Source of the DNA: a virus
Lineage: Duplodnaviria > Heunggongvirae > Uroviricota > Caudoviricetes
DNA length: 64,000 nt
Virus record (IMG/VR): IMGVR_UViG_3300032167_000069
Direction: 5' to 3' (one strand)
Both the position numbers and the translations under genes were made by a program. This document shows, in pieces, positions 7,319 to 62,913 of the stretch. Numbering within the stretch: position 1 is the first letter of the stretch; each line of letters starts with the position of its first letter. The notes beneath the pieces are model-generated. The model had not been told where the DNA came from and searched no databases. It saw nothing but the letters and a program-made list of their open reading frames with translations.

Positions 7319-7639
7319 CTACTCCTCTCGTAGTTCGCCTTTCAGATAAAGCGATTGTTTGTATCGCCTACATTCTCTTGTGGCTCTTGTTCTTTCTTCT
7401 TTGCTGCGTTGGAATTCTTTCCAGTTTTCTTTTCGGTATTGTTTAGCTCTTTCTGCACTTTCTGGATTTACAATAAGCAAAACAGTTTTCTTGCTTACCT
7501 CAAATCTTTGAGCTAATTTATTCAAACTCCAATTACCTGTTTCATATTCTTCTTTAATAAGTTGTTTCTGTTCGTCAGTTAATTTTCTTCTTCTGTCCTG
7601 AAGTCCACGCAACGGTATTGTTTCAGATTTGTATGGCAA
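7319..7639 (-). CDS. Small basic HTH DNA-binding protein
   Basis: LNKLAQRFEVSKKTV is HTH-like; the C-terminus is basic. Confidence 0.4.
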   Translation of the reverse strand: MPYKSETIPLRGLQDRRRKLTDEQKQLIKEEYETGNWSLNKLAQRFEVSKKTVLLIVNPESAERAKQYRKENWKEFQRSKEERTRATRECRRYKQSLYLKGELREE

Positions 7640-28912: not shown

Positions 28913-29290
28913 TTATGATATAATTTTCAAAAAGATGTCTTCCTCAACATCTTCTATATCTTCTTCGTAATCATATTCCTCTTCATATTCTTCCTCGTCA
29001 AAATCGCCGAACTCATCGGCTGCGTCATTTTTATATTCTTCAAAATCGTTATCATTTAGATTGACAAGCTCTCCATTAGAATATAGGAAATACTCTTCAT
29101 CAAAATCGTCAATATCTCTCAGAAGATAATACACATATTTGATACCATCTGCTCTCAATGTCTCATACACCAAATCATCAATTTGGTCATAGTAATAGAT
29201 ATCATCACAAGTGTCTAATCCATTGTCAGAACAGAAGTCAATCAATTCTCCCCAAGTAGTTATTTGCTCATCATATTCAGCTCTTGTCAT
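28913..29290 (-). CDS. Highly acidic hypothetical protein
   Basis: 125 aa, rich in D/E/Y. Confidence 0.4.
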   Translation of the reverse strand: MTRAEYDEQITTWGELIDFCSDNGLDTCDDIYYYDQIDDLVYETLRADGIKYVYYLLRDIDDFDEEYFLYSNGELVNLNDNDFEEYKNDAADEFGDFDEEEYEEEYDYEEDIEDVEEDIFLKIIS

Positions 29291-29304
29291 TAGAACACCT
29301 CCTA

Positions 29305-29865
29305 TTACTCAGCATTTCCCCAATGAAATGCGTATATGGTATCGCCTAAGTTAATCACCTTGAACCCCATTTGGAAATAATATCTCCACACAGTATTCCA
29401 ATCTATAACGTCAACTAAGTTTTCACTAATGCTTTCAAGATAATCGGTGGTTATATTTTTGGCAAAAGGTATAAGCATTTCAGTTGCAAGATAGCACGCA
29501 CACTTTTCTTCTTCGGAACTCATTAACCATTTTTCAGTCCCTACTAATTCCTCCAGCATAAAGTCACTATCGCATATCTTTTCTAAAAATCTTTTATCAT
29601 TCAACGAAGAACTATTTGATGCTTCAAGTATAATTTCAAGTAACTCCAATGTCATACAAGGGTTCTCAGAATTTATATCCTCAATTGCCTCGTTAAGCTC
29701 AACAACATCATCAAAACCAATGCAGAAGTTTCCTTCCCAATCAATTATCTGTAGTTCGTGTGAAACATCAATGCTATTTTTCACCTCGCAAGGAAGTGTC
29801 AACTGAGTTGTTTCACCAGTATCCCAGTCGTCAACTTCGACCTTTAGTTTAATCAATACAAACAC
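29305..29865 (-). CDS. Hypothetical protein
   Basis: ORF of 186 aa. Confidence 0.45.
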   Translation of the reverse strand: MFVLIKLKVEVDDWDTGETTQLTLPCEVKNSIDVSHELQIIDWEGNFCIGFDDVVELNEAIEDINSENPCMTLELLEIILEASNSSSLNDKRFLEKICDSDFMLEELVGTEKWLMSSEEEKCACYLATEMLIPFAKNITTDYLESISENLVDVIDWNTVWRYYFQMGFKVINLGDTIYAFHWGNAE

Positions 29866-29989
29866 CTCTTTTCTTGAATAACTCTACAATCTAAAATAAT
29901 AAATAATCCTGAAGAAGACCGGGCGGAGATGAGTTACCAGTATATTAACGGGTTGTTCTGGGTAAGTTTAAGTTCAGAAAGATTGAGTT

Positions 29990-30200
29990 ATGTTAACTAA
30001 TGGTGTCTGTTATGTGGATAACTGCTTGGTTTCTTCTGACTTATCCCACTCACCTTTCTTCCCCTCGCCGAGTTCATCGAGCTTCTTTACGTGCCCAGTG
30101 TGAACCGTGCAGTCACCTGCGGGTGCAGGGGAATTCTTTTCCGCCAGCAAAGTGTTACTTCGGCTGACAACACAAAGCGCCTGTAAAAACAAGACAATAC
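29990..30200 (-). ncRNA. Structured GC-rich ncRNA locus A. A paralog of the RT-adjacent ncRNA, sharing a conserved module of about 45 nt.
   Basis: On the plus strand at 30138-30185 it reads ttcttttccgccagcaaagtgttacttcggctgacaacacaaagc. Near-identical modules occur at 34216-34262 and 35150-35192. A GC-rich hairpin-rich unique segment follows. The region is ORF-poor, and the ORF 30010..30285 is just a translation of the repeat. Confidence 0.45.
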
Positions 30201-30211
30201 ATTGTAAAGTT

Positions 30212-30301
30212 TGGCGGAGAGTAGAGGACTCGAACCTCTGCCCCGGATAAACGGGGAACGGTTTAGCAAACCGTGGCAGTACCAACTATGCTTAACTCTC
30301 C
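30212..30301 (-). tRNA. tRNA-Ser (GCU)
   Basis: Acceptor ggagagt/actctcc, anticodon arm acggt-ttGCTaa-accgt, long variable arm, T-arm, CCA. Confidence 0.7.
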
Positions 30302-30463
30302 ATATTGGCTCTTAGGTCAGCCAGCCGCACATCTTAACCCGAAAAATACTGGGGTTGGAATTTGCTCCCAAACAGCAGACTATTGCGAACTTGTGGTCTG
30401 CCAGCACGACTCATTTAATTTCTCCTCTATAGGATGCGGCACAGTGACATAACTGTGCAGTAC

Positions 30464-30551
30464 TGGCGGAGGGTCAGAGACTCGAACTCTGAAGCCCTTG
30501 CGGACTCGGCAGTTTTCAAGACTGCTGCCTTACCAATTAGGCTAACCCTCC
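30464..30551 (-). tRNA. tRNA-Ser (UGA)
   Basis: Acceptor ggagggt/accctcc, anticodon loop ctTGAaa, long variable arm, CCA. Confidence 0.65.
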
Positions 30552-30716
30552 ATATGGAAGCTTCCCCCGTAGGGAGGTATTACCAACCCACTTGCAAGTT
30601 TGCTGCTTTTTTAATTTAACCCATCCTAAAGCACCTGAAACACTGGGCATCCCGTGAAACCTTTTTTGAGGTGTCACCCTCGGAGTGGAGTACGGGCAAC
30701 GACAATCTCTCCCGAC

Positions 30717-30792
30717 TGGTCTGAGTAGCAGGTCTCGAACCTGCGACCTCGTGTTCCCAAAACACGTGCTCTACCAACTGAGCTATACCCAG
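30717..30792 (-). tRNA. tRNA-Pro (UGG)
   Basis: Canonical D-arm gctcagttggtagagc, anticodon arm cgtgt-ttTGGga-acacg, T-arm gcagg-ttcgaga-cctgc, CCA. Confidence 0.75.
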
Positions 30793-30800
30793 ATATATAA

Positions 30801-30874
30801 GTGTAGACTGACGACTTGAACGTCACCCCTCGACTAACACGAGACTCAGTACTCCCAATTATACGAAGCCTACA
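30801..30874 (-). tRNA. tRNA-like element (degenerate; D and anticodon arms not resolved)
   Basis: T-arm tgacg-ttcaagt-cgtca. Acceptor tgtaggc/gtctaca with a G-U pair. Confidence 0.3.
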
Positions 30875-30877
30875 CTT

Positions 30878-30964
30878 TGGTGCCGCTGACCGGACTTGAA
30901 CCGGTACGGTATTACTACCGAGGGATTTTAAGTCCCTTGTGTCTGCCAATTCCACCACAACGGC
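30878..30964 (-). tRNA. tRNA-Leu (UAA)
   Basis: D-loop gtggaattggcagacac, anticodon arm aggga-cuUAAaa-ucccu, long variable arm, T-arm, CCA. Confidence 0.7.
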
Positions 30965-30967
30965 ATA

Positions 30968-31044
30968 TGGTTGCGGGGGTGGGACTCGAACCCACGACCT
31001 CCAGCTTATGAGGCTGGCAAGCTGACCATCTGCTCTACCCCGCA
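30968..31044 (-). tRNA. tRNA-Met/fMet (CAU)
   Basis: Acceptor tgcgggg/ccccgca, anticodon loop ctCATaa, T-arm gtggg-ttcgagt-cccac, CCA. Confidence 0.7.
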
Positions 31045-31049
31045 ATATA

Positions 31050-31132
31050 TGGTGCCCGTAGCAGGACTCGAACCTGCACTCTCACGAACTGGTTCCTAAG
31101 ACCAGCGTGTCTGCCAATTCCACCATACGGGC
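31050..31132 (-). tRNA. tRNA-Leu (UAG)
   Basis: Acceptor gcccgta/tacgggc, anticodon arm ctggt-ctTAGga-accag, long variable arm, T-arm gcagg-ttcgagt-cctgc. Confidence 0.7.
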
Positions 31133-31166
31133 ATATTTCAACGCCCCGAAAGGCGTTGAAGTTTAA

Positions 31167-32795
31167 TTATTCGTCGTCTTCAACAACGTCAGTTTCTTCA
31201 ACTGCAATACCATAAGGCACGTCGCTTTCTTCGCACTCATAGTATCCTTCGTTAACTACTGCCTCATTATACTCTCCGCTTTCGGTTGCATCTAATGATG
31301 TATCATCTTTTGAACCACCAAAAATTCCCTTGAGAGGCTCAGCAAAACCCTTAACTAATTCCTGAATTTCGCCACTAAAAGACTGACCATTTAACGCCTT
31401 GTTCTCAACATCAAGCTTCTTCATCATACTGGGAATGCTGGAAAGTGTGTCAATTAAAACGTTTCCAGTTGCACCCTGAGCACTGCTACCACCGATATTT
31501 ACGAATTCTGCATTCTTACCGATGTCAGCCATAATCTGGGCTGTCTTTGTTGCAATTTCAATACGAGCATTAGCTTCAATCTTTAAACGCTCAATCTCAA
31601 AGTTAACCTTGTCATTTCCGGCACGAGCTTCAGCAAGAGCTTTTTCACCTTCGGCTTTTGCAAACAACATAGCCTTTTCTGCTTCAGCTTCCGCAGCACC
31701 CTTTTTGGCAATAATCTCAGCTTCAGTTTCACCCTCAACTTTAATTCTGTTAGCATTTGCCCTCGCTTCCTCTTCGATAGCTTTTGCCTTACCTTTTGCC
31801 ACCTGCTCCATAACCTTAGCTTCCGCCTCTGCGTTGATTGTGGCAACTCGTGCTTCCTCTTCAGCCTTGATTTCTGCCCTTACTCTCTCAGCCTCAGCCT
31901 TTGTTTTGATAACTTCTTTCTCTTTTACAGCCGCAAGATTAGCCTGTTCCTGTCTTACAACAGCCACACGACCTTCCTGTTCTGCAATTTCCTGCAACCT
32001 TACAGTTCTCTGGAGTTCACCAGCGATTTCAGCATCCGCATTTGCCTTGTCTGTTTCAGCCTTAAACTCTGCCTTTTTCAAACTGTTATCTCTGTTCTTT
32101 TCAGCAATCTGAAGCTCAGTATCGAGTTCGCTTTGTTTTGCAGCCTTTTCAGATTCAGCATTCTGCTGTCTAATCTGCTGATTTGCAGTAGCTTTTACTT
32201 TTTCGGCTTCTTTTCTCTTTTCTTCACGGTCAATCGCTGCGATATCATCATAATATCCATACTTATCCGTAATATCCTGAATGTTAAGCGATACAAGCTC
32301 AAGACCCATATCTGTCAATTCATCACTTACAGATTCAACAATTGCTTCCTTAAATGTTTCTTTGTCGTTCTGTACCTGTTCAGGTGTCATACTTGCAACA
32401 ACACTTCTTACAGAACCCATAAGCGTGAGCTTAACATCCTCAATAATACCTCTCTGTCCTCTTTCCTTAAACGAAACAATCGCTTTCTTTAATACATCGA
32501 GGTCTTTTGTGTTAGGTCTAATCTGAGCTGTCCAGTCAACGATAATCGGCACAGATGTTTTTGTCTTAATCTCATCTCCGTCAGTTGGAACTGTTAACAT
32601 ACACAAATCAAAGTATGATGCTTTTCTGAAAATCGGGATAACGAAGCTACCGCCAGAAACCTTGATTTTAGGCTCTTTTCCGCCTGTGATAATTAACGCT
32701 TTGTCAACATCTGCAACTTTGTAGATGCAACAAAGAAAAATAATAAGTGCCGCAAGAATACCAAGTGAAATTCCACCGTAAATTAAAAACTGCAT
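31167..32795 (-). CDS. SPFH/band-7 (flotillin-like) membrane protein with a long Ala/Glu-rich coiled coil
   Basis: An N-terminal TM helix, then an SPFH-like core, then an EA-rich coiled-coil repeat region and an acidic tail. It lies directly downstream of the RT on the same strand. Confidence 0.55.
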   Translation of the reverse strand: MQFLIYGGISLGILAALIIFLCCIYKVADVDKALIITGGKEPKIKVSGGSFVIPIFRKASYFDLCMLTVPTDGDEIKTKTSVPIIVDWTAQIRPNTKDLDVLKKAIVSFKERGQRGIIEDVKLTLMGSVRSVVASMTPEQVQNDKETFKEAIVESVSDELTDMGLELVSLNIQDITDKYGYYDDIAAIDREEKRKEAEKVKATANQQIRQQNAESEKAAKQSELDTELQIAEKNRDNSLKKAEFKAETDKANADAEIAGELQRTVRLQEIAEQEGRVAVVRQEQANLAAVKEKEVIKTKAEAERVRAEIKAEEEARVATINAEAEAKVMEQVAKGKAKAIEEEARANANRIKVEGETEAEIIAKKGAAEAEAEKAMLFAKAEGEKALAEARAGNDKVNFEIERLKIEANARIEIATKTAQIMADIGKNAEFVNIGGSSAQGATGNVLIDTLSSIPSMMKKLDVENKALNGQSFSGEIQELVKGFAEPLKGIFGGSKDDTSLDATESGEYNEAVVNEGYYECEESDVPYGIAVEETDVVEDDE

Positions 32796-32864
32796 AATAA
32801 AAGTCTCCTTAGAAAAATATTTGTTGTTTGTTTACTGTGATTTTGTTTTGCTAAAACTGTTTCT

Positions 32865-34019
32865 TCACGATAAATCCCCCTTTATTAGCTTTTCTATGTC
32901 TGCGCCAAACTTCTGGTTATTATGAGAAATAACATAGTTTATATAATCTGGCTCAATCATTCTATAATAGGAAATAAGCCCAGCAAATACTTGTACGTCG
33001 TGCCTATCCCAATTAACGTTTTTCTTTTTGTCGCAAATATAATTGCAACACATAGCTTTGAATGCTTTTTTCTTTTGATGACCAATGGTTATCTCGTTAT
33101 CTTTGTTAAGCATAACACCCAAATTCCAGTTCCGACCAGCGGATGAACCGTATCTCGTTTTTTCTTTTTTGATTGCAAATGGAGCATCAAATCTTTTCAG
33201 AACATCGAGAACATATTCCTGCACCGCTTTGTAATCAAAATTCACTTTTGATGAAATCAAAATATCATCAGCATATCGTGTGTAAACAAAATGCTCGTCC
33301 ATCTTCCTTAAATCATTACAAAGTTGATGGTCGATTGGAATCATCATAATATTGGTGATTGTCGGCGATATAGGTGTTCCCTGTGGCAAACCGCCGTTTA
33401 AAAAACAAAGACTCAAAGCTCTTTTTAAGGCTTCGAGTCCATTTCTTCTTTTCACTATTTCACTAAACGGGAATATTTTTGAAAACATTGATAACACAAA
33501 CTCCTCTGTTGTGCTACCAAAAAAGTCCGAGAAATCAAGTTTTGCGAACCATTTACTTTCGTTCTGCTGATGTCTCTTAATTGAGTCAATTGTGCATCTA
33601 CCTTTTACATATGCAAAAGCAGATGTATGATACAATGCAAACATATTCTTTTCAAAAATAGTTTTCAAATTACGCAATGCATTCATCAATTCAGGTACAG
33701 GTGCATTAATTTCTCTCAAACCGCCACTTTTCTTTGGTATATGGAACGTTTCATACAGCGACTTCCTATCTACCTCAAATAAATTTGCATATTGAGAATT
33801 AAACTGTTCAAGAGCATAAATCATTGCGTTAAAATTGAATTTATCAAGAAATTTTTCGTTTAACTGCTCTCTGTAATGTGTTCTTGTGTTTGTTACATTG
33901 GGCACAATCATTCTTGATACATCAACCGCACCCGCCAGAATATCATCTAATGATAACTGATAATATATTGGCGATTGTTGAATTGTTACATAAGGCATAC
34001 TAATTCTCCTTTCGTACAT
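32865..34019 (-). CDS. Reverse transcriptase, retron/Abi-like type (not DGR type)
   Basis: IPKKSGGLREINAP (RT motifs 1/2), AKLDFSDFFGS (motif 3), GLPQGTPISP (motif 4), YTRYADDILISS (motif 5, YADD). KTRYGSS...NLGVMLN...IGHQKKKAF follows the pattern of the retron region after YADD. AYVKGRCTIDSIKRH sits at the NAxxH position. At 384 aa it has no maturase or endonuclease domain. Confidence 0.75.
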   Translation of the reverse strand: MYERRISMPYVTIQQSPIYYQLSLDDILAGAVDVSRMIVPNVTNTRTHYREQLNEKFLDKFNFNAMIYALEQFNSQYANLFEVDRKSLYETFHIPKKSGGLREINAPVPELMNALRNLKTIFEKNMFALYHTSAFAYVKGRCTIDSIKRHQQNESKWFAKLDFSDFFGSTTEEFVLSMFSKIFPFSEIVKRRNGLEALKRALSLCFLNGGLPQGTPISPTITNIMMIPIDHQLCNDLRKMDEHFVYTRYADDILISSKVNFDYKAVQEYVLDVLKRFDAPFAIKKEKTRYGSSAGRNWNLGVMLNKDNEITIGHQKKKAFKAMCCNYICDKKKNVNWDRHDVQVFAGLISYYRMIEPDYINYVISHNNQKFGADIEKLIKGDLS

Positions 34020-34059
34020 ACTGTAATCTACAAGATATATAAGCGTCTATGCAGCACGA

Positions 34060-34290
34060 GATGCTAAGCTTTTGCTGGTAACTTGGTCATCAGTGAGATG
34101 AGAGTTCATCTGATGAAAACCCAGTATTTATGCGGTATTTCTCTATTGATGGATTTGGGCAGACCTGTCGGGAAGCGTAAGCCACGGCTGTGGGTGATTG
34201 CCATCCTGAGCTGTCTCCCTGTGTTTTTCTCCAGCAAAGTGTTACTTTGGCTTATAACACAAAGCATCTGAAAACTCAGATTATTCATTA
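34060..34290 (-). ncRNA. Structured GC-rich ncRNA locus B, immediately upstream of the RT start (retron msr/msd-like position)
   Basis: Conserved module at 34216-34262. Inverted repeats cttttgctgg (34069-34078) and ccagcaaag (34221-34229) bracket about 160 nt. Several GC hairpins are present. The ORF 34106..34288 is a translation of the repeat. Confidence 0.5.
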
Positions 34291-34305
34291 CAAGTATGTT
34301 AATAT

Positions 34306-34545
34306 TTATTCATAACATTCATCTAAATCCTCATTGTCTATATTCACCTCTGAGTTGTCTTGTTCTACGTGAATATAGCAATAGGAATCTCCGCATATTG
34401 CAATTTTTGCTTCTGGCGGATAATTATTTAATTGTTCGATTAACTGTTTTACAGTTGTGTTTGGCAAGAAAACTTTTCTGTTTGCATCATACATATCATC
34501 TCTCCTAAATTTCATCAATATCGCAAGTCCATTGACGCCATTCAA
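34306..34545 (-). CDS. Hypothetical small protein
   Basis: 79 aa, between ncRNA loci C and B. Confidence 0.35.
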   Translation of the reverse strand: MNGVNGLAILMKFRRDDMYDANRKVFLPNTTVKQLIEQLNNYPPEAKIAICGDSYCYIHVEQDNSEVNIDNEDLDECYE

Positions 34546-34873
34546 ATCTCAAAAACTTCTGAATAGCTTCTTCGAGCGAATCAGCCTCGATAACTTTAGT
34601 CCACATATGGCTACCTATCAAAACTTCATCGTATCTTTTAGGTTCATCGCATACTACAATATCGCCGATGCGTTTCTCTGGAGTGTAACAACCTTTAGTT
34701 TCAGCGGTATAATATGCAATTAGGCGAGTGTTTAAGTAAAATTCACTTCCATAATATCCACAGAAACTTCCACGTCCATCAGTTTTGCACTGTTCAAACA
34801 GCCCAATTAAACTGTTTTCATATGCAACCTTTTTAACAGAGTCGTCATAAAACTTATTTACATAAAACTTCAT
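34505..34873 (-). CDS. Hypothetical protein
   Basis: 122 aa. Confidence 0.4.
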   Translation of the reverse strand: MKFYVNKFYDDSVKKVAYENSLIGLFEQCKTDGRGSFCGYYGSEFYLNTRLIAYYTAETKGCYTPEKRIGDIVVCDEPKRYDEVLIGSHMWTKVIEADSLEEAIQKFLRFEWRQWTCDIDEI

Positions 34874-35039
34874 TGAAAATACGCTCCTTTACATATAAAA
34901 TCAGTCTTTTATAAACACCTACGATCAAACATTATAAAATACAATCTTGAGGAAATCCGGATACCTTCGTCGGAACCACTTCAGATATATAAATTATAAA
35001 TTAAAGTAGGGATTTGTCTATGAAAAGTGTTGATAAATT

Positions 35040-35222
35040 GAGAATTTATCGACATAAGGACTTGACAAAGCACGCAATGACCTGTAGTGGAGGTGGTAGC
35101 ACCCGGCATCGGGCTCTGGAGGCGTCATCGCCGTCCCCTTCTTTTCGCCTATCAAAATATCACTTCGGCTGACAACACAAAGCATTTGAAATTAATCAAA
35201 TAATGCATCGTAGGTGTTTATG
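35040..35222 (-). ncRNA. Structured GC-rich ncRNA locus C, immediately 3' of the CLec-like gene stop. Shares the conserved module.
   Basis: cttttcgcctatcaaaatatcacttcggctgacaacacaaagc at 35150-35192, then a unique GC-rich hairpin segment. It shares an 11-nt identity (cccgatgccgg) with the VR-like region of the upstream gene. Confidence 0.45.
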
Positions 35223-35224
35223 GT

Positions 35225-36106
35225 TTATATTGTTAATATTGAAAAAAGTTCTTCTTCAGACACATCTTCGTACACGATTTCAGTTTGGATTACATCATAA
35301 TAACCCATATCGTCTGGTTCGTCACTTATAAGGATTTCAGGATTGATTTTCAAAGCGGGACGGACACCCAAAATGCCATCATACGCACTGCAATAGTAGT
35401 AATCACCGCCACGACTGACGTACCTGACGCCGCAACCACCGCCGGCATCGGGAGAACGGAGCAAATAATACCAGTTCTCGTCATATTCCACTTCTTCATC
35501 AACATTAGAATATTCTACGGCGTAATCAGTGGGCATAGCGGCTCTATCTGCATTTATTTCATTTTTAAAATATTCCCAGTAATCACCTTCGGACACGTTT
35601 CTTATTGTTCCACCGTACAAATTGGTGTATGAAGGCAGAAATACCTTTCTGGTTATTACGTCAAGTCGCTCATCTTCACGGGTCACTTCGCAATCAGGAA
35701 GTGCCGTCATTACCGTAGAATCATCTATTGCATCAATTTCCCAGCCCTCAAAAAATCTCAAGAAGCCGTGATGATTTGCATATCCTGTGTTTCCTGAAAC
35801 CAAATTTCCTGTGGGTGGCTCATCGTATTCGTGGCGTTTAATAAAGCATTCATCATCGCTACTGTTTAAAAACTGGTCGATATTTGATACCGAGTAGCGA
35901 TTATTACCATAACGCTGACGATAAGCATCGGGGTTTTCCACTTCTCTCGCATCGAATGCACGGAAATCCTCAATCCTTTCTGACATAAAGGTATTATCTC
36001 CGTTTACCTTTATCCAAGTAATCTTATGAGTACCCTCATCGCCAATACTATACGCACCAAAACGCACCTTTTCGCCAACATTGAGTTCGCTTATTCTTCG
36101 TGCCAT
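35225..36106 (-). CDS. CLec/FGE-fold protein with a DGR-variable-region-like C-terminus (putative receptor-binding/adhesin-type protein)
   Basis: The C-terminus NWYYLLRSPDAGGGCGVRYVSRGGDYYYCSAYDGILGVRPAL resembles FGE/CLec-type DGR target ends (LRS...RGG...GxRP/C.). It is Y/S/G-rich. Confidence 0.5.
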   Translation of the reverse strand: MARRISELNVGEKVRFGAYSIGDEGTHKITWIKVNGDNTFMSERIEDFRAFDAREVENPDAYRQRYGNNRYSVSNIDQFLNSSDDECFIKRHEYDEPPTGNLVSGNTGYANHHGFLRFFEGWEIDAIDDSTVMTALPDCEVTREDERLDVITRKVFLPSYTNLYGGTIRNVSEGDYWEYFKNEINADRAAMPTDYAVEYSNVDEEVEYDENWYYLLRSPDAGGGCGVRYVSRGGDYYYCSAYDGILGVRPALKINPEILISDEPDDMGYYDVIQTEIVYEDVSEEELFSILTI

Positions 36107-36128
36107 ACATTACCACCCTTTCTATATA

Positions 36129-36800
36129 TTAAAAAGCATCGACAGTATGACCAAAAGCATCAATTAAAATCAACTTACTGATACTGCCACCTTTTGCAAA
36201 ATTTATAAAATTAGATACACCGTGGGCAACAATCATTCTAACCGTCGGAACAACAGAAAGAGTCATATTACAAGCTGACACAGGTGTTTCGGCTTTTGCT
36301 TCTTCGTGAGTAAAAGCCATAGATTTAAGGAAATCTTCAACCATCTTCTTATTCTTCCAGTCCGCAGCATAATGCTGAGCGTCTGTAAGTCTCATACGGA
36401 AATCGAACATAGCTTTTACATAAGGATTGTCCTTGCAACTTTCCGCAATTTCACGTCTCAAATCAATGTTATCAACACAGAGGAAAACATAGCCAGACAA
36501 CTTCTGCCCTACATATCCTTTGTCAACAAGCTTGATTTCCTTTTTTACTTCAGGGTTGATTTCGTAAAGCATATCTGCCAATGCCTCAACCTTTGTTTTT
36601 CCGATATCAACCTGTCTGAACATCTGATTCGCAATGTTGTGTGGTTCTACGTGGTCAAAATCATAAAGAGTTATATTTGTGAGACCAAATCTGACAAGAT
36701 TTTCTGCGACCGTAGAGCCGATTGCACCACAGCCTATAATGTGTAATCTTTCTTTGCACATTTCAGGCTGAAAAAATTCATATGATTTTGCTAAATCCAT
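36129..36800 (-). CDS. ThiF/MoeB-family E1-like adenylyltransferase
   Basis: IIGCGAIGS is a Rossmann nucleotide loop. LYDFDHVEPHNIANQ fits E1. At 223 aa it is a minimal E1. Confidence 0.6.
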   Translation of the reverse strand: MDLAKSYEFFQPEMCKERLHIIGCGAIGSTVAENLVRFGLTNITLYDFDHVEPHNIANQMFRQVDIGKTKVEALADMLYEINPEVKKEIKLVDKGYVGQKLSGYVFLCVDNIDLRREIAESCKDNPYVKAMFDFRMRLTDAQHYAADWKNKKMVEDFLKSMAFTHEEAKAETPVSACNMTLSVVPTVRMIVAHGVSNFINFAKGGSISKLILIDAFGHTVDAF

Positions 36801-36812
36801 ACCCTCAACTCC

Positions 36813-37703
36813 TTATGTATCAAATCTGTCCTGACGATAGATATCATAAGCCTCATCTTCCATATCCTCAGAACCTCTGTTTTTCCAACCACTACCAACA
36901 TTAGATTTACCCTGCTGGTGTTGGTTTACTTTAGGCTTTTCCTTATCTTTTCCGGTGCTCGGTGTGTTATTTGCAGGCTTTGTACTACCGTTATACCCAC
37001 CATATCCACCGTTATAACCGCCATAGCTTTTTCCACCATAACTATACCCAGTTACAACCGTTGTCTTCTTTTTAACCTGCTCTTTTGCTTCCTCAACAAA
37101 AGCATCAAGGTCGTATCCGTCACCAAGAATGCCATACGAAATATCCTTGTTTTCATACAAAGTGTTGTTCTGGAGATCGTAAATCTTTGTGTTATTCTCC
37201 AGTTTCTTGTTCCAAATCATAAAAATATAATACATATCATCTGTAAGCTGAGCGAGAATGCTCTCCTGATGATTTGTATCAACCGCAGACGGTGTGGTGC
37301 CGAAATTTACGTGGCTATGACCCTGCATAATGATGTGATTAAAACGTTCATCTTCAATGTTGTCCATAATCCATTTAGCATACGCTTCTGTGTCCATTTC
37401 AACCGTAGAGCCCGTTACCGTCTGAGGATACACAACAAGGTCTGAAATAAGGAAGTTTGCACCCTCAATGCGCTCACCGACACCGTGCCAAGCAACCTCT
37501 GAATCAAAAGACATAAGTAATGCAATCATTTTTGAATAAGCTTCCGGTGTAAAGAAGATTGTTGCTTTTTCATCTTCTTTATATGTAAAATTCTTATTGT
37601 AGCTGATTTTTCCATCAGCCATTTTTGTTCCAGCAAGTGTTTTTGCAAACTCTTCAAGTGCCTGTTTCTTTAACTCTTCTGTGAGTTTAATAGGTTTTGC
37701 CAT
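36813..37703 (-). CDS. JAMM/JAB (MPN+) metallopeptidase with a Gly/Tyr-rich C-terminal tail
   Basis: HSHVNFGTTPSAVD carries the HxH...S..D JAMM motif; an upstream E is present. The tail is GYSYGGKSYGGYNGGYGGYNG. Confidence 0.6.
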   Translation of the reverse strand: MAKPIKLTEELKKQALEEFAKTLAGTKMADGKISYNKNFTYKEDEKATIFFTPEAYSKMIALLMSFDSEVAWHGVGERIEGANFLISDLVVYPQTVTGSTVEMDTEAYAKWIMDNIEDERFNHIIMQGHSHVNFGTTPSAVDTNHQESILAQLTDDMYYIFMIWNKKLENNTKIYDLQNNTLYENKDISYGILGDGYDLDAFVEEAKEQVKKKTTVVTGYSYGGKSYGGYNGGYGGYNGSTKPANNTPSTGKDKEKPKVNQHQQGKSNVGSGWKNRGSEDMEDEAYDIYRQDRFDT

Positions 37704-39166
37704 TATTTTTCGACCTCCTGTGCTTCATTTTCCTGTTCCTGACTTAAAAGCCAGTTATATGCTTCTGTAGGCGTGCAAGATGTTCCATCGGGAAGCTGAA
37801 TTACAGCCTTACAACTTGATGTGAACAATCTACCCATAAATGGTGCAACCGTCTGTGAGCCCTCTGACAAATTGAGGTTTTTCGCAGATGATACACACTG
37901 TTCTATAGCAGCGATATAATCGCCTTTTGCTAAAAGCTGGTCTATGAGCGGTCTGTTATTTCCGATACAAGCATGGAAATCAAAATGAGGATTTGTTAAA
38001 TAGTCATTATATTCCATCGGATAATCATATCTCTGTATCGTATCAACTCTACCACGCATATCTAAATCGTAGTACGCACGTACTTTAATCTTTAATAATG
38101 GTTCATCGCCAAAAACAGCATCGAGCAATTTCTTTCGAGCTGCTTCTTCGTAAAAAGCTTCCGCAGAAACATTATAACCAGTAAACAAATAGCTTCTCGA
38201 ATTTTTCGTCATACGCTCGTACATCTCAGGATCATAATTTTCAATAGTTGTACCAACAATGATTTTTATGTGCTGATTGTCAACATATATTGGGTTAATA
38301 TGTCTGTTACAAACAAAGTAATCAACAATTTCCGAATCATTGCCAGCTTCTTTTATCTGATAAGCCAAGCCACTCTCTTTAATACGAAGATTATCCATAT
38401 TTTCAATCATATTCTGATAATCTGCCATTAAACGTTCCATTCTTGACTGCTGATTTGCAATTTCATTCTTTACAACATCCAACTGTCTCTGTTTTGCTCT
38501 GGCTTCAAACCCGCCGAGCAATTTCTGTATCTGTGCAGTTCTGAAGTCATATTTTGATGCAAACTCCTCAATAATTCTCTCATATTCAGGAGCATAACGG
38601 TTGGTGAGTGCTTTTACGAGAGCCTTTTCTTCTTCATTGATAGGATTCTCTGCGAAATACCACGGCACCAACCTTGAGATAAGCGACTGTATAAAGTGCC
38701 AAATTCTTGTATTAAGACACGCAACAAATATTGCGACGCTTTTCTCTTCCTCATTTATATAAAAACGAACATTTGCCTGCTTTGCAACGAATACGTGAAG
38801 GTCTTCCAATTCTGTAAATTTAGGATAGACCTGTGTAAAATGACTTTCAATCTTATTGAAAGATGTAGTAATACTGCTTTCTGTACCATTGAAACCGCAA
38901 ACAAAGATCGTGTTATTGCCTATGCCATCTGACAGAATTCTTACTATATCCTCATCAGAATAATCTCTCAATGAGGAATCTCTGTCATTTCTAACCTTAA
39001 CATTTAATGAAATGTGTTCCTTTTTCTTCATTCTTGGAGCTAACAAAGCTCTGAGTGTCGCAAGAAACGAATTATCACCGTTAAAAGTTGCGCCCACAAT
39101 GTTAGGAAACATTTCGTTTGCAATTTCGTTTGTCAGAGTCAGTCCATATAATTCTTTATTAAACAT
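37703..39166 (-). CDS. Hypothetical 487-aa protein in the Ubl-E1-JAB operon (possible E2-like or accessory; unassigned)
   Basis: ORF translationally coupled to the JAB gene; no motif recognised. Confidence 0.45.
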   Translation of the reverse strand: MFNKELYGLTLTNEIANEMFPNIVGATFNGDNSFLATLRALLAPRMKKKEHISLNVKVRNDRDSSLRDYSDEDIVRILSDGIGNNTIFVCGFNGTESSITTSFNKIESHFTQVYPKFTELEDLHVFVAKQANVRFYINEEEKSVAIFVACLNTRIWHFIQSLISRLVPWYFAENPINEEEKALVKALTNRYAPEYERIIEEFASKYDFRTAQIQKLLGGFEARAKQRQLDVVKNEIANQQSRMERLMADYQNMIENMDNLRIKESGLAYQIKEAGNDSEIVDYFVCNRHINPIYVDNQHIKIIVGTTIENYDPEMYERMTKNSRSYLFTGYNVSAEAFYEEAARKKLLDAVFGDEPLLKIKVRAYYDLDMRGRVDTIQRYDYPMEYNDYLTNPHFDFHACIGNNRPLIDQLLAKGDYIAAIEQCVSSAKNLNLSEGSQTVAPFMGRLFTSSCKAVIQLPDGTSCTPTEAYNWLLSQEQENEAQEVEK

Positions 39167-60106: not shown

Positions 60107-61150
60107 ATGCCTAAAACAAGTAAAGTTCAAACAATGAGTACAAAGCCGAAGCAAGCTTCTCCAGTTGAAGATATGCCTACTTCATTTTATTGCAGTAGAT
60201 GTCATCGGACGCATAAGAAGCAAAAAGGTAATTATCCCGCTTCTCAATCTCCGCTCTACAAGGGTAATGGCGGTTATCTAAACCATTGCAACCATTGTAT
60301 TGACGAGATGTTTGAACATTACAAGGCAGCCCTTGGCGATGAGCCTGAAGCTATCAGAAGAATTTGCTTAAAATTTGATATATATTGGAATATGGAAATA
60401 TATTCAATGTTAAATAAAGCAAGCACAAGCCAATCTCGTGTAAGAGCATATATAAGCAAAACAAATTTGTATAAGTATATCGGCAAAACATTCGACGATA
60501 CGCTTGATGAAGAATATGCTGCAAGTTTAGAGGCGGAACAATTAAAAGATATTGTAATTACCGATACAGAAAATATTCCCGAAGTCGAGGGTGTCGAAAT
60601 TTCTCCAGACATAGTTGAATTTTGGGGAACTGGCTTTGAACCCAATTTTTATCTCGAACTTGACAGAAAATACAAATACTGGACTGAGGGATTACCACAG
60701 AAACCTGAAAAGGGCGAAGAAGCAATATACAAGCAGGTTTGTATTTTAGAGGCTACAATCAACAGAGACAGTGCTGCTGGCAAATCTATTGAAAAGAATG
60801 TTAATGCATTAAACACGCTTCTTGGTAGTGCAAATTTAAAGCCAAGCCAGAAGAAACAAGACGAAGCTATTGATACAGCTTTTGACAGTAAACCATTTGG
60901 TGTTGGCATTAGATTATATGAAAATTCAAAGCCTATTCCTGAGCCTGATCCTGAATTACAGGACGTTGATGGAATAGTTAAATATATTTCAATTTGGTTC
61001 TTAGGGCATTTGTGTAAAATGCTTGGTATTAAAAATACATATTGCAAACTTTACGAGCAAGAGCTTGAAAAAATGCGTATTGATAATCCAGAGTTAGAAG
61101 AGGAAGACGACGAAACGTTGTTTAACGATATATTTGGTAGTGAAACTTAA
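60107..61150 (+). CDS. Hypothetical protein with an N-terminal zinc ribbon; possible terminase small subunit by position
   Basis: CSRCHRTHKK...CNHC. It lies immediately upstream of the large terminase. Confidence 0.4.
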   Translation: MPKTSKVQTMSTKPKQASPVEDMPTSFYCSRCHRTHKKQKGNYPASQSPLYKGNGGYLNHCNHCIDEMFEHYKAALGDEPEAIRRICLKFDIYWNMEIYSMLNKASTSQSRVRAYISKTNLYKYIGKTFDDTLDEEYAASLEAEQLKDIVITDTENIPEVEGVEISPDIVEFWGTGFEPNFYLELDRKYKYWTEGLPQKPEKGEEAIYKQVCILEATINRDSAAGKSIEKNVNALNTLLGSANLKPSQKKQDEAIDTAFDSKPFGVGIRLYENSKPIPEPDPELQDVDGIVKYISIWFLGHLCKMLGIKNTYCKLYEQELEKMRIDNPELEEEDDETLFNDIFGSET

Positions 61151-62913
61151 TGGATACACAAGCAACGTCTCGCCTAAAAGCTGAAAGACAACAGCGTATT
61201 CTCGATGGTGTTGCAGCTTGGGCTGGATATTATCGTAGTAATCCACATCGTTTTGCTAAAGACTTCCTCCATCTTGATTTACATCTATTTCAAAAAATCT
61301 TGTTAGTAATTATGAACATATCTAACTCATTTGTTTTTATTGCCAGTCGTGGTATAGGTAAAACATTCTTGAGTGCTATATATTGCTGCATACGCTGTAT
61401 TCTTTATCCCGGAACAAAGATATGCATTGCGTCTGGTACGAGAGGACAGAGTATAAATGTTCTTGAAAAAATCATGACAGAATTAAAGCCTAACTCTCCT
61501 GAGTTAGCGTATGAGATTGATGATAAAGAAACTCATATGAATGGTAATAATGCGCAAATTATGTTTAAAAATGGTTCATTCATAAAGGTAGTAACCGCTG
61601 GCGATAGTAGCCGTGGTAACAGAGCTCATATACTCTTAATTGATGAGTTCAGAATGGTTAAAAAAGATATTATTGATACTATTCTCAAAAAGTTCTTATC
61701 AAATCCAAGACATCCTAAATATATGGACAAACCAGAATATAAACATAGAAAAGATTTAAAAGAACCAAATAAAACATTATACCTGTCATCCGCTTACTAC
61801 AAAGATCATTGGTCATACGTTAAGACTAAGGACAATTGTAAGTTTATGTTGGATGAACGAAGAAAAGATTTTGTTTGCGGTTTCCCATATCAGCTCGCTC
61901 TTAAAGAGGGATTGCTTATGGAGGAAACTGTTATTGAACAAATGACAGAATCGGATTTTAGTGAAATCAAATGGGGTATGGAAATGTGTGCCGAATTTTG
62001 GGGAGACTCAGACGGCACCTTTTTTAATTTTGAATCAATTGCAAAAAACAGAAAAATTCAATTTCCAATGTTACCAGATTCACTATCATCTAAACTATCA
62101 AATAATACCAAAGTTCGCATTCAGCCAAAACAAAATGGTGAAAAAAGAATATTGTCAGCCGATATAGCTCTTATGTCGAGTAGCAAACACAAGAACGACG
62201 CATCGGCAATATTCATAAATCAACTCTTCCCCACTAAGGCTGGGCGATATTCAAATAATATTATATACACAGAAACATCAGAAGGAGCTCACACAGAAGA
62301 CCAAGCTCTTCGCATAAGAAAATTATTCGAGGAGTACGAGTGCGATTACATCGTTCTTGACGTAAAAGGTGTTGGTTTAGGTGTATATGATGCTCTTGCA
62401 AGAGTTATTACCGACTCAGAAACAGGAGAAATTTATCCTGCTTTATCGTGTTGTAACAATCCTGAAATGGCTGCAAGATGTACAGATCGTGGAGCTGAAA
62501 AGGCTATATGGGCTATAAATGGCTCTGCTCGTTTTAACTCTGATTGTGCGATTTTGTTGCGAGAAGGATTTAAGACAGGAAAAATACGTTTATTAGCAAC
62601 TGAATATGACGGCGAAGAAGCTCTTGGAGGTATAAAAGGATATAACTCCCTATCTTCTTCAGATAAAATGATATTTACATTGCCGTATGTACATACAACT
62701 TTGTTAATTAGCGAACTTATTAACCTAAAACACGAAGAGTCGGGCGGACTGGTAAAAATCATCGAAAAAAGCGGTATGAGAAAAGATAGATATTCAAGCT
62801 TGAGCTACAATTATTATGTTGCGTGCCAACTTGAAAAGAATATTAAGAAACGTTCAAGTTCTGATGATATTAACAGTCTGTTTATGTTTAGAGCTCCAAA
62901 AATTAAACGATAA
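61150..62913 (+). CDS. terL: Terminase large subunit
   Basis: Walker A IASRGIGKT, Walker B ILLIDEF. 587 aa with a C-terminal nuclease-sized domain. Confidence 0.65.
   Translation: MDTQATSRLKAERQQRILDGVAAWAGYYRSNPHRFAKDFLHLDLHLFQKILLVIMNISNSFVFIASRGIGKTFLSAIYCCIRCILYPGTKICIASGTRGQSINVLEKIMTELKPNSPELAYEIDDKETHMNGNNAQIMFKNGSFIKVVTAGDSSRGNRAHILLIDEFRMVKKDIIDTILKKFLSNPRHPKYMDKPEYKHRKDLKEPNKTLYLSSAYYKDHWSYVKTKDNCKFMLDERRKDFVCGFPYQLALKEGLLMEETVIEQMTESDFSEIKWGMEMCAEFWGDSDGTFFNFESIAKNRKIQFPMLPDSLSSKLSNNTKVRIQPKQNGEKRILSADIALMSSSKHKNDASAIFINQLFPTKAGRYSNNIIYTETSEGAHTEDQALRIRKLFEEYECDYIVLDVKGVGLGVYDALARVITDSETGEIYPALSCCNNPEMAARCTDRGAEKAIWAINGSARFNSDCAILLREGFKTGKIRLLATEYDGEEALGGIKGYNSLSSSDKMIFTLPYVHTTLLISELINLKHEESGGLVKIIEKSGMRKDRYSSLSYNYYVACQLEKNIKKRSSSDDINSLFMFRAPKIKR

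What the first reader, a model, noticed from the sequence alone, without database searches (positions are those of the whole stretch)
29990..35222. Three paralogous ncRNA loci share a conserved module of about 45 nt but have unique GC-rich bodies
Plus-strand positions 30138-30185, 34216-34262 and 35150-35192 share ttcttttc.gcc...caaagtgttacttcggctgacaacacaaagc. Copies A and C are identical over acttcggctgacaacacaaagc. Each module is followed (on the minus strand) by a different hairpin-rich GC segment of about 150 nt. Copy B sits in front of the RT. Copy A lies between a tRNA-Ser and the next gene. Copy C starts right after the stop of the CLec-like gene. One RT with several templates that share a recognition module would explain this; I know of no multi-template retron-like system of this kind. 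A less exciting explanation is a repeated promoter: the module has a TTTG...TA..TTTG-like pattern on the minus strand.
Basis: seen in the sequence. Interest (0 to 1): 0.85.

Follow-up and report, generated by a model that had tools for sequence, protein, structure and literature searches.

The report
Phage retron with five template RNAs
A gut phage carries one retron-type reverse transcriptase and five separate retron-style template RNAs that share its recognition hairpin but have unique, fast-evolving bodies; I found no description of such a natural one-enzyme, many-template array, though one possibly relevant 2026 preprint could not be read.

Summary
The repeat is real and larger than reported. 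The window holds five copies, not three, all on the minus strand between 28012 and 35221.

Each copy is a complete retron-type msr-msd unit of 241-332 nt. Each has:
- a unit-specific a1/a2 inverted repeat
- an invariant G directly 3' of a1, the candidate branching G
- two covarying hairpins, P0 and P1
- a UAACAnnUUG tail and a unique body
- a conserved UAG just before a2

The only reverse transcriptase (RT; 32865-33998, minus strand) is retron-type, not DGR-type. No TR/VR pair exists.

About 95 non-independent related phage contigs show the same layout, with up to 6 units per locus. All 292 covariance-model hits lie on the RT strand. The inner part of P1 is 85% identical within a genome and 48% between genomes, so it tracks the RT. 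P0, a1/a2 and the bodies are unit-specific.

Between close relatives the bodies diverge about four times faster than the RT gene, with sharp boundaries.

The plain-promoter reading is rejected. The multi-template retron reading is supported by sequence and comparison. Production of msDNA and its biological role are untested. No conserved effector gene was found.

Verdict: new variant of a known kind, high interest.

The parts
32865..33998 (-). Retron-type reverse transcriptase, 377 aa. The real start is probably the second ATG at 33998, because the first ATG (34019) lies inside a2 of unit B.
   Evidence: Pfam RVT_1 1.9e-19. PADLOC RT_II-A 3.1e-50. NCBIfam retron_St85_RT 2.2e-53, 181 bits, below the 235-bit cutoff. 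The top PDB sequence matches are almost all retron RTs: Ec83, Ec78, St85 family, E about 1e-21. YADD is present. Database homologues are called at 377-378 aa.
34016..34299 (-).
   Evidence: Covariance-model hit of 74.6 bits, E 1e-16. The unconstrained MFE fold closes a1/a2. Coordinates.
34287..34299 (-). Unit B a1 (ACAUACUUGUAAU). It pairs with a2 with one bulged U.
34286..34286 (-). Unit B invariant G directly 3' of a1; candidate branching G.
   Evidence: Invariant column 13 of alignment A1, 44 of 44 sequences. Coordinate.
34231..34281 (-). Unit B msr module: hairpin P0 (34281-34266), hairpin P1 (34265-34244), tail AACACUUUGCUGG (34243-34231).
34016..34027 (-). Unit B a2 (AUUACAGUAUGU), preceded by UAG and followed by the RT ribosome-binding site.
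34911..35221 (-).
   Evidence: Covariance-model hit of 61.3 bits, E 2.4e-13. The a1/a2 pair is inverted repeat I9, 15 of 15 bp. The MFE fold closes a1/a2.
35207..35221 (-). Unit C a1 (AUAAACACCUACGAU).
35206..35206 (-). Unit C candidate branching G.
35148..35201 (-). Unit C msr module: P0 (35201-35184), P1 (35183-35162), tail (35161-35148).
34911..34925 (-). Unit C a2 (AUCGUAGGUGUUUAU), preceded by UUG.
29880..30211 (-). Unit A, a complete msr-msd unit (332 nt). It starts one base after the 3' end of tRNA-Ser(gct).
   Evidence: Covariance-model hit of 66.1 bits, E 1.5e-14. a1/a2 is 11 of 11 bp with one G-U pair. The MFE fold closes a1/a2. tRNA position.
30201..30211 (-). Unit A a1 (AACUUUACAAU).
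30200..30200 (-). Unit A candidate branching G.
30144..30195 (-). Unit A msr module: P0 (30195-30179), P1 (30178-30157), tail (30156-30144).
29880..29890 (-). Unit A a2 (AUUGUAGAGUU), preceded by UAG.
28667..28907 (-). It has a long P0 loop and a long near-perfect 87-nt hairpin (28813-28727).
   Evidence: Covariance-model hit of 38.8 bits, E 1.3e-7. a1/a2 is 8 of 8 bp, anchored at the G. MFE fold. Coordinates.
28836..28892 (-). Unit E msr hairpins: P0 (28892-28859) and P1 (28858-28836). a1 is 28907-28900, the G is 28899, a2 is 28674-28667.
28012..28254 (-). Unit D, a fifth and most divergent unit (243 nt). It has a long 75-nt hairpin (28150-28076) and lies upstream of the isochorismatase-like gene.
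   Evidence: Partial covariance-model hit of 24 bits, E 7.6e-4. Two mismatches on the 21-nt core. Folding z-score -5.26. The MFE fold closes the 8-bp a1/a2. Coordinates.
28181..28239 (-). Unit D msr hairpins: P0 (28239-28203) and P1 (28202-28181). a1 is 28254-28247, the G is 28246, a2 is 28019-28012.

Best explanation
This is a phage-borne retron in which one reverse transcriptase serves an array of five separate msr-msd template RNAs. Each unit is transcribed on the minus strand; whether from its own promoter or as part of a longer transcript is not known. Unit A abuts a tRNA, and in relatives neighbouring units lie about 8 nt apart, which suggests co-transcription. Each RNA folds so that its own a1 and a2 ends pair. 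That places an invariant G (AAU-G) opposite a conserved UAG at the foot of the helix. The RT is proposed to recognise the shared msr module, mainly hairpin P1 plus the UAACAnnUUG tail, which is kept alike among units of one genome. It would then prime from the 2'-OH of that G and copy the unit-specific body from the a2 side, giving five different msDNAs. Shown here: the anatomy, base-pair covariation, conservation of the array in relatives, the retron affinity of the RT, and the hypervariability of the bodies. Inferred: RT recognition of P1, branch priming, and msDNA production. The biological role is not established. The system sits in phages, has no conserved effector, lies in an accessory region with NAD-salvage genes and tRNAs, and has very fast-evolving bodies. 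My best guess is therefore a role in phage-host or phage-phage conflict, with the msDNAs acting as a variable repertoire of decoys or sensors.
For: Five units, all on the minus strand. Structure counts on 44 modules: 92% of cells paired against 69% in shuffles (0 of 500 reach the observed value) and 31-48% in slid controls; 13 of 15 pairs show compensatory changes; P1 is 99.2% paired. RNAalifold independently predicts a1/a2, P0 and P1 on full-length units. Exact a1/a2 complementarity of at least 8 bp, anchored at the G, occurs in 64 of 104 units against 2-3 with shifted anchors; a2 lies 225-350 nt downstream. G is at position -1 of a2 in 51 of 55 units. There are 292 model hits in related loci, all on the RT strand, with up to 6 per locus. 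The RT is retron-type. The inner part of P1 is 85% identical within genomes and 48% between them (0 of 1000 permutations), while P0 is 43% against 44%. Bodies are unique within the window. They are hypervariable with sharp boundaries: for L007 against L011, RT 95%, msr 98%, body 69%. An RNase H gene lies near the RT in 7 related loci from four clades.
Against: There is no experimental evidence for transcripts, a 2'-5' branch or msDNA. The RT scores below the curated NCBIfam cutoff (181 against 235 bits), and the retron motifs NAxxH and VTG are variant (DSIKRH and NLG). No Rfam family matches the units at E up to 1. No conserved effector was found: the SPFH gene after the RT has no homologue in the 95 related loci held at that point. 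Units A and C fold no better than shuffled sequence (z -0.43 and -0.01). Unit D matches the model only partly. A third helix enclosing the GC-rich hairpin is not clearly above chance (mean score 6.5 against 5.8). The related loci are not independent samples; several come from the same contig or from near-identical phages.
Confidence: 0.75

Rival explanations
1. Only unit B, the one next to the RT, is a working retron template. The other units are RT-binding RNAs, decoys or regulatory leaders that reuse the msr module but are not copied.
For: Unit B scores best against the model (74.6 bits). D and E are more divergent (24 and 38.8 bits). All five window units lie 14-102 nt upstream of the next ORF.
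Against: All five keep the features needed only for priming: the anchored a1/a2, the invariant G, and a G before a2. Non-adjacent units in relatives keep them as well. In relatives units 2 and 3 follow each other in tandem with no ORF between them.
Confidence: 0.1
2. The units act like the hybrid RNA of type VI retrons. Template and downstream coding sequence share one transcript, and reverse transcription of the leader switches on translation of the gene that follows.
For: In the window, a2 ends 14-37 nt from the next start codon for units A, B, C and D. A precedent exists in Retron-Vpa2 (bioRxiv 10.1101/2025.10.22.683967).
Against: The downstream genes are unrelated: the RT, an isochorismatase-like protein, and small unknown proteins. 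They are not conserved partners. In many relatives a unit is followed by another unit rather than a gene. This reading is compatible with the best explanation and would add to it rather than replace it.
Confidence: 0.1
3. The shared module is a repeated promoter or 5'-leader with no retron function.
For: The end of a1 (TGTAAT, TACAAT) resembles a -10 hexamer. The consensus scan places a weak promoter-like site over a1 of unit C (35236-35207, 9 of 12 matches).
Against: Promoters do not show compensatory base-pair substitutions. They also do not need a complementary partner 225-350 nt downstream that changes with them. Many units read TGTAAC at that position. Promoter-like sites are only modestly enriched in the region (31 found against 20.5 +/- 4.9 expected).
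Confidence: 0.03
4. It is a diversity-generating retroelement whose RT mutagenises the neighbouring DUF6273 (CLec-like) gene.
For: It is a phage-encoded RT beside a surface-type gene, and the template-like segments are hypervariable.
Against: No TR/VR repeat links the gene's 3' part to anything in the window. The bodies match nothing else in the window. The RT matches retron models, not DGR models. No Avd-like gene was found. Substitutions are not clearly adenine-specific: 62% involve A, against about 54% expected (my estimate) from base composition.
Confidence: 0.02

Closest known systems
Bacterial retrons of RT clade 1 (type I-A Ec78/Ec83, type II-A St85 family)
   Same: The RT is closest to these. 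The ncRNA lies upstream of the RT on the same strand. It has an a1/a2 inverted repeat, a conserved G at the 3' end of a1, msr stem-loops and a structured body.
   Different: There are five ncRNAs per RT instead of one. The system is carried by phages (terminase in the window; IMG/VR contigs). No conserved effector gene was found. The units are long (241-332 nt) and their bodies are hypervariable. The NAxxH and VTG motifs are variant, and the RT scores below the curated family cutoff.
Engineered retron arrays, or 'multitrons' (PMC10370050)
   Same: One RT produces several different DNAs from an array of ncRNAs or msds that share the msr recognition element.
   Different: Those arrays are synthetic and built from Eco1 parts. 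Here the array is natural. Each unit has its own a1/a2 and its own P0, and the arrangement is conserved across a phage family.
Type VI retron hybrid RNA (Retron-Vpa2, bioRxiv 10.1101/2025.10.22.683967)
   Same: The reverse-transcription template is physically joined to a downstream coding sequence on one transcript.
   Different: That system has a single template, a defined toxin and HTH partners, and is a bacterial defence. No such partners are present here.
Diversity-generating retroelements
   Same: A phage-encoded RT is paired with a dedicated template RNA, and sequence variability is localised.
   Different: There is no template/variable repeat pair, no Avd, and the RT belongs to a different clade. 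Here the template itself varies between genomes.
Stand-alone (msr-msd)-RT cassettes noted by Mestre et al. 2020 (PMC7736814, RT clades 2 and 11)
   Same: A retron RT plus ncRNA with no associated effector gene.
   Different: Those are bacterial cassettes. In the passages I retrieved by term search, no cassette with more than one ncRNA is mentioned.

Membership tests
Retron | RT belongs to the retron clade of prokaryotic RTs | tested here: met
   Best PADLOC, NCBIfam and PDB matches are almost all retron RTs. The score is below the curated St85-family cutoff (181 against 235 bits), so this is a divergent member of the clade, not of that subfamily.
Retron | ncRNA gene directly upstream of the RT on the same strand | tested here: met
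   Unit B ends 17 nt before the RT start. A unit sits upstream of the RT in nearly all related loci.
Retron | a1/a2 inverted repeats bracketing msr-msd | tested here: met
   All five window units have them. Of 104 units, 64 have at least 8 exact anchored bp, against 2-3 in controls.
Retron | Conserved branching G at the 3' end of a1 | tested here: met
   The G is invariant in 44 of 44 aligned modules. The position is met at sequence level only.
Retron | 2'-5' branched RNA-DNA product (msDNA) | not testable with these tools
   Needs RNA and DNA extraction, debranching and sequencing.
Retron | Structured msr stem-loops recognised by the cognate RT | tested here: met
   P0 and P1 are supported by covariation. 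The inner part of P1 tracks the genome and RT lineage. Physical recognition by the RT is inferred.
Retron | Retron-specific RT motifs NAxxH and VTG | tested here: inconclusive
   Aligned to Ec83, NAKIH becomes SIKRH (in the context DSIKRH) and HVTG becomes WNLG. The H and the G are kept. YADD is present.
Retron | Associated effector protein (tripartite system) | tested here: not met
   The SPFH gene after the RT has no homologue in the 95 related loci held at that point. Neighbours downstream of the RT differ between clades. ThiF is a constant upstream neighbour, but that may only be phage synteny.
Retron | One ncRNA per RT | tested here: not met
   Five units in the window; up to 6 per locus in relatives, commonly 2-5.
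Rfam retron msr RNA family | Match to the curated covariance model | tested here: not met
   No retron-related family was reported at E up to 1 over 28000-38000.
Diversity-generating retroelement | Template repeat nearly identical to a variable repeat in a target gene | tested here: not met
   No such pair within the 64-kb window. The rest of the genome was not available.
Diversity-generating retroelement | DGR-clade RT and an Avd accessory gene | tested here: not met
   The RT matches retron models. The small neighbouring ORFs have no family match.

The most novel reading that the evidence does not exclude
A widespread family of gut phages uses one retron RT and an array of hypervariable templates to make a repertoire of different msDNAs. 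Functionally this would resemble a CRISPR array, but made of reverse-transcribed single-stranded DNA. Each msDNA could act as a specific decoy, sensor or inhibitor in conflicts with host defences or rival phages. The sharp hypervariability of the bodies could come from diversifying selection. It could also come from error-prone cDNA being recombined back into its own template locus, which would make this a self-diversifying retron.
Probability: 0.2. Interest if true: 0.95.

Novelty: new variant of a known kind. Interest (0 to 1): 0.78.

Why it matters
Retrons are known as bacterial anti-phage systems with one RT, one ncRNA and one effector. Here the same machinery sits in phage genomes, lacks a conserved effector, and serves an array of up to six templates whose copied parts evolve far faster than the enzyme.

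If the units are all reverse transcribed, three things follow:
- Phages make several msDNAs, for a purpose not yet known, plausibly counter-defence.
- It would be a natural counterpart of engineered multiplexed retron editors. It would show which parts of the ncRNA the RT needs (P1 and the tail) and which are free (a1/a2, P0 and the body).
- The question of how one retron RT selects its templates becomes directly testable, using five natural substrates in a single genome.

Tried and rejected
- **DGR reading.** I looked for a template/variable repeat linking the DUF6273 gene or any body to the rest of the window and found none.
- **Rfam.** Only tRNAs and chance hits over 28-38 kb.
- **GUGUU/AACAC hairpin.** My first reading of the module was wrong. 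Relatives show the real stem is CUUUG/CRAAG.
- **Bacteroides-type promoter (TTTG...TAnnTTTG).** The spacing and sequence do not fit. Genes have Shine-Dalgarno sites, which suggests a Firmicutes-like host (sequence).
- **Small proteins starting at the conserved ATG.** Rejected. Many units read AACG instead, and close relatives differ by indels that are not multiples of three.
- **A third helix (P2) between the tail and a segment after the GC-rich hairpin.** Clear in some units, such as B, but not above shuffled controls overall.
- **SPFH/flotillin gene as effector.** Not conserved.
- **Co-occurrence test with RT-less relatives.** Of 33 ThiF-anchored loci, 32 carry the RT and the 33rd ends at a contig end just after ThiF. 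The test could therefore not be made.
- **Weak sixth model hit (28534-28473, E 0.27).** It lies inside a plausible ORF and lacks P1, so it is treated as chance.
- **Literature.** Ten searches found no description of natural multi-ncRNA retrons or of this phage family. One preprint could not be opened: bioRxiv 10.64898/2026.09.22.753630. It holds 'ncRNA array' 10 times, 'reverse transcriptase' 14 times, 'cDNA' 24 times and 'retron' twice, so it may be relevant prior art.


Full report
**1. The observation**

The three copies exist where stated. The repeat finder reports a 51-nt family at 30137-30187, 34224-34274 and 35142-35192, 76-84% identical. A 31-nt degenerate pattern finds exactly these three, against none in 100 shuffles. 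All genes in the area run on the minus strand, so I read everything on that strand. A looser 21-nt pattern already hinted at a further copy at 28181-28201.

**2. What the RT is**

The 384-codon ORF at 32865..34019 matches Pfam RVT_1. It scores best against retron models:
- PADLOC RT_II-A, 3.1e-50
- NCBIfam retron_St85_RT, 2.2e-53, though at 181 bits it is below the 235-bit cutoff

Its nearest solved structures by sequence are retron RTs: Ec83, Ec78 and St85-family, E about 1e-21. YADD is present. The retron motifs NAxxH and VTG appear as DSIKRH and NLG in the alignment to Ec83.

Database homologues are called at 377-378 aa. The first ATG lies inside a2 of unit B, so the true start is probably 33998.

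This is not a DGR. The neighbouring DUF6273 / Hoc-like gene has no template repeat anywhere in the window.

**3. Relatives reveal the real anatomy**

A scan of IMG/VR with the RT returned 64 loci at 45-81% identity, on phage contigs of 7-148 kb, mostly above 50 kb. Reading the 330 nt upstream of each RT showed that the module is conserved but with compensatory changes. The real stem is CUUUG/CRAAG, seen also as CUUCG/CGAAG, CUCUG/CAGAG, CUUCA/UGAAG and CUCCU/AGGAG.

A second hairpin of free sequence (P0) lies just upstream. Before it comes a conserved UGUAAUG. Just before the RT's ribosome-binding site comes a conserved UAGAUUACAG, whose core is the reverse complement of the UGUAAU. That is the a1/a2 arrangement of a retron ncRNA, with a conserved G at the 3' end of a1.

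**4. Five units in the window**

I aligned 44 modules (A1). Counting pairs for P0 and P1 gave:
- 92% of cells paired, against 69% in shuffles (0 of 500 as high) and 31-48% when partners were slid
- 13 of 15 pairs with changes on both sides
- P1 99.2% paired

The G after a1 is invariant. A covariance model built from this alignment and run without filters finds five units in the 64-kb window, all on the minus strand:

| Unit | Model score | E-value |
|---|---|---|
| B | 74.6 bits | 1e-16 |
| A | 66.1 bits | 1.5e-14 |
| C | 61.3 bits | 2.4e-13 |
| E | 38.8 bits | 1.3e-7 |
| D | 24 bits (partial) | 7.6e-4 |

Exact coordinates are in the parts list.

Each unit has its own a1/a2: 15 bp in C (also inverted repeat I9), 12-13 bp with one bulge in B, 11 bp in A, and 8 bp in E and D. 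Unconstrained MFE folds of all five units close a1/a2 on their own. E and D carry long near-perfect hairpins of 87 and 75 nt, typical of msd stems. D folds far better than shuffles (z -5.26) and B moderately (z -2.05). A and C do not (z -0.43 and -0.01).

**5. The array is a family trait**

The model finds these hits in related loci:

| Source of loci | Loci | Hits |
|---|---|---|
| IMG/VR, via RT | 64 | 168 |
| Gut MAG contigs, via RT | 27 | 66 |
| IMG/VR, via ThiF | 31 | 42 |
| Metagenome contigs | 3 | 16 |

All 292 hits are on the RT strand, with up to 6 per locus. These loci are not independent, since several share a contig or are near-identical. The usual layout is unit, RT, unit, unit. 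Neighbouring units are about 8 nt apart, which leaves no room for separate promoters. In a close relative (L092) units fill whole intergenic gaps, starting within a few bases of the preceding stop codon.

Across 104 units, exact a1/a2 complementarity of at least 8 bp anchored at the G occurs in 64, against 2-3 when the anchor is shifted. a2 lies 225-350 nt downstream. The base before a2 is G in 51 of 55 units, with consensus yAUGUAG|AUU. RNAalifold on twelve full-length units predicts a1/a2, P0 and P1 by itself.

**6. What is shared and what is unique**

The inner stem and loop of P1 is 85% identical among units of one genome but 48% between genomes (0 of 1000 permutations). P0 is 43% against 44%. 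So P1 tracks the RT lineage, as expected for a recognition element. P0, a1/a2 and the bodies are free to differ.

The five bodies resemble neither each other nor anything else in the window. Positional counterparts in relatives with 81-84% identical RTs share only the first 60-80 nt.

Between very close phages the divergence has sharp edges:

| Pair | RT gene identity | msr module identity | Body identity |
|---|---|---|---|
| L007 / L011 | 95% | 98% | 69% |
| L047 / L049 | 93% | 98% | 60% |

Over six close pairs the bodies carry 315 substitutions in about 1,300 nt, with a transition/transversion ratio of 1.16. The RT genes carry 428 in about 6,800 nt, with a ratio of 4.4. The indels are not multiples of three, so the bodies are not coding.

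**7. Context**

- The window is phage DNA. It holds a large terminase at 61150..62913 and eight tRNAs. Only the tRNAs match known phage records.
- Unit A starts one base after tRNA-Ser(gct).
- The gene after the RT is SPFH/flotillin-like. It has no homologue in the 95 related loci held at that point.
- In 7 related loci from four clades an RNase H gene sits near the RT. That is consistent with msDNA maturation.
- Upstream synteny is very stable: DUF2828/DUF7788, two unknown genes, ThiF, then often DUF6273. Of 33 ThiF-anchored loci, 32 carry the RT.
- Downstream lie an isochorismatase-like gene, a PRPP-synthetase-like gene and NAMPT.
- No conserved effector emerges.

**8. Mechanism**

Shown: five RNAs with full retron ncRNA architecture and one retron-type RT, with the array conserved and co-oriented across a phage family.

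Inferred from established retron biology: the RT binds the shared msr module, primes from the 2'-OH of the invariant G, starts copying at the G before a2, and produces one msDNA per unit.

The role is open. The phage location, the missing effector, the accessory-gene neighbourhood and the hypervariable bodies point to a conflict function.

**9. Rivals**

A plain promoter cannot explain covariation or long-range complementarity. A DGR is excluded within the window. "Only B is copied" and "type VI-like translational control" remain possible and testable.

**10. Novelty**

Ten literature searches found engineered retron arrays (PMC10370050) and effector-less bacterial cassettes (PMC7736814). They found no natural multi-ncRNA retron and no phage family of this kind. 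One September 2026 preprint that mentions "ncRNA array" together with reverse transcriptase and cDNA could not be read and may overlap with this finding.

I file this as a new variant of a known kind.

Noticed in passing
window 20355-21842, 26650-27438, 27454-27984 (minus strand): A set of NAD-salvage-type genes: NAMPT/NAPRTase, a PRPP-synthetase-like phosphoribosyltransferase, and an isochorismatase/nicotinamidase-like protein. The same trio is found downstream of the RT in relatives. It may be an NAD-replenishing counter-defence.
   Followed up: partly
window 36129-36800 with 36813-37703 and 37703-39166 (minus strand): A ThiF/E1-like gene preceded by two unknown genes (296 and 487 aa). It is a constant upstream neighbour of the RT: 32 of 33 ThiF-anchored loci carry the RT 0.3-1 kb downstream, sometimes with only a unit between them. 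Whether this is a functional link or phage synteny is unresolved.
   Followed up: partly
window 31167-32795 (minus strand): A 542-aa SPFH/flotillin-like protein (FloT-like, below cutoff) between the RT and the tRNA array. It has no homologue in the 95 related loci held at that point, so it looks like a recent insertion in this phage.
   Followed up: yes
L092 11917-12351; also L068, L084, L050, L085, L086: A phage RNase H gene lies next to or near the RT in seven related loci from four RT clades. No copy was found in this window.
   Followed up: partly
window 30212-31132 and 25071-25495 (minus strand): Eight tRNA genes: Ser x2, Pro, Leu x2, Met x2, Gln. Unit A begins one base after tRNA-Ser(gct), and the same junction occurs in L001. 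tRNA 3' processing could therefore define the 5' end of that retron RNA.
   Followed up: partly
window 35020-34993 (minus strand), inside unit C: The best sigma-70-like site of the region (TAGACA, 16 nt, TATAAT; 11 of 12 matches) lies in the AT-rich 3' part of unit C. TTGACA or TTGTCAAG motifs recur at similar places in units of relatives. They could be internal promoters for downstream genes or one strand of a helix.
   Followed up: partly
alignment A2 columns 187-203 (e.g. L007 about 7345-7362): A small conserved island, CCAUUG-nnnCA-CAAUGG, forms a short hairpin within the otherwise variable bodies of the unit that follows the RT in one clade. Its function is unknown. It might be a stop signal or a binding site.
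   Followed up: no
window 40402-41964 (minus strand): A DUF2828/DUF7788 protein is conserved in the same position in relatives. Rhizobium phage records that matched the query's tRNA-Leu genes annotate a TROVE-domain protein beside their own tRNA-Leu genes; any link to the DUF2828/DUF7788 protein is speculative.
   Followed up: no
window 22862-23986 (minus strand): An AAA / nSTAND3-like ATPase gene lies within the same accessory region. A homologue occurs next to the NAD-salvage genes in L095.
   Followed up: no
window 28646-28553 and 28564-28259 (minus strand): After unit E a good ribosome-binding site precedes a TTG-start ORF of only about 31 codons. This overlaps the start of the listed 101-aa GTG ORF in another frame, so the gene model here is uncertain.
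   Followed up: no
L065-L091 (genome contigs): The related contigs in MAGs are assigned to very different taxa: Alistipes, Prevotella, Clostridia, Roseburia, even 'archaeon'. This is what mis-binned phage contigs look like. Shine-Dalgarno sites suggest a Firmicutes-like host.
   Followed up: no
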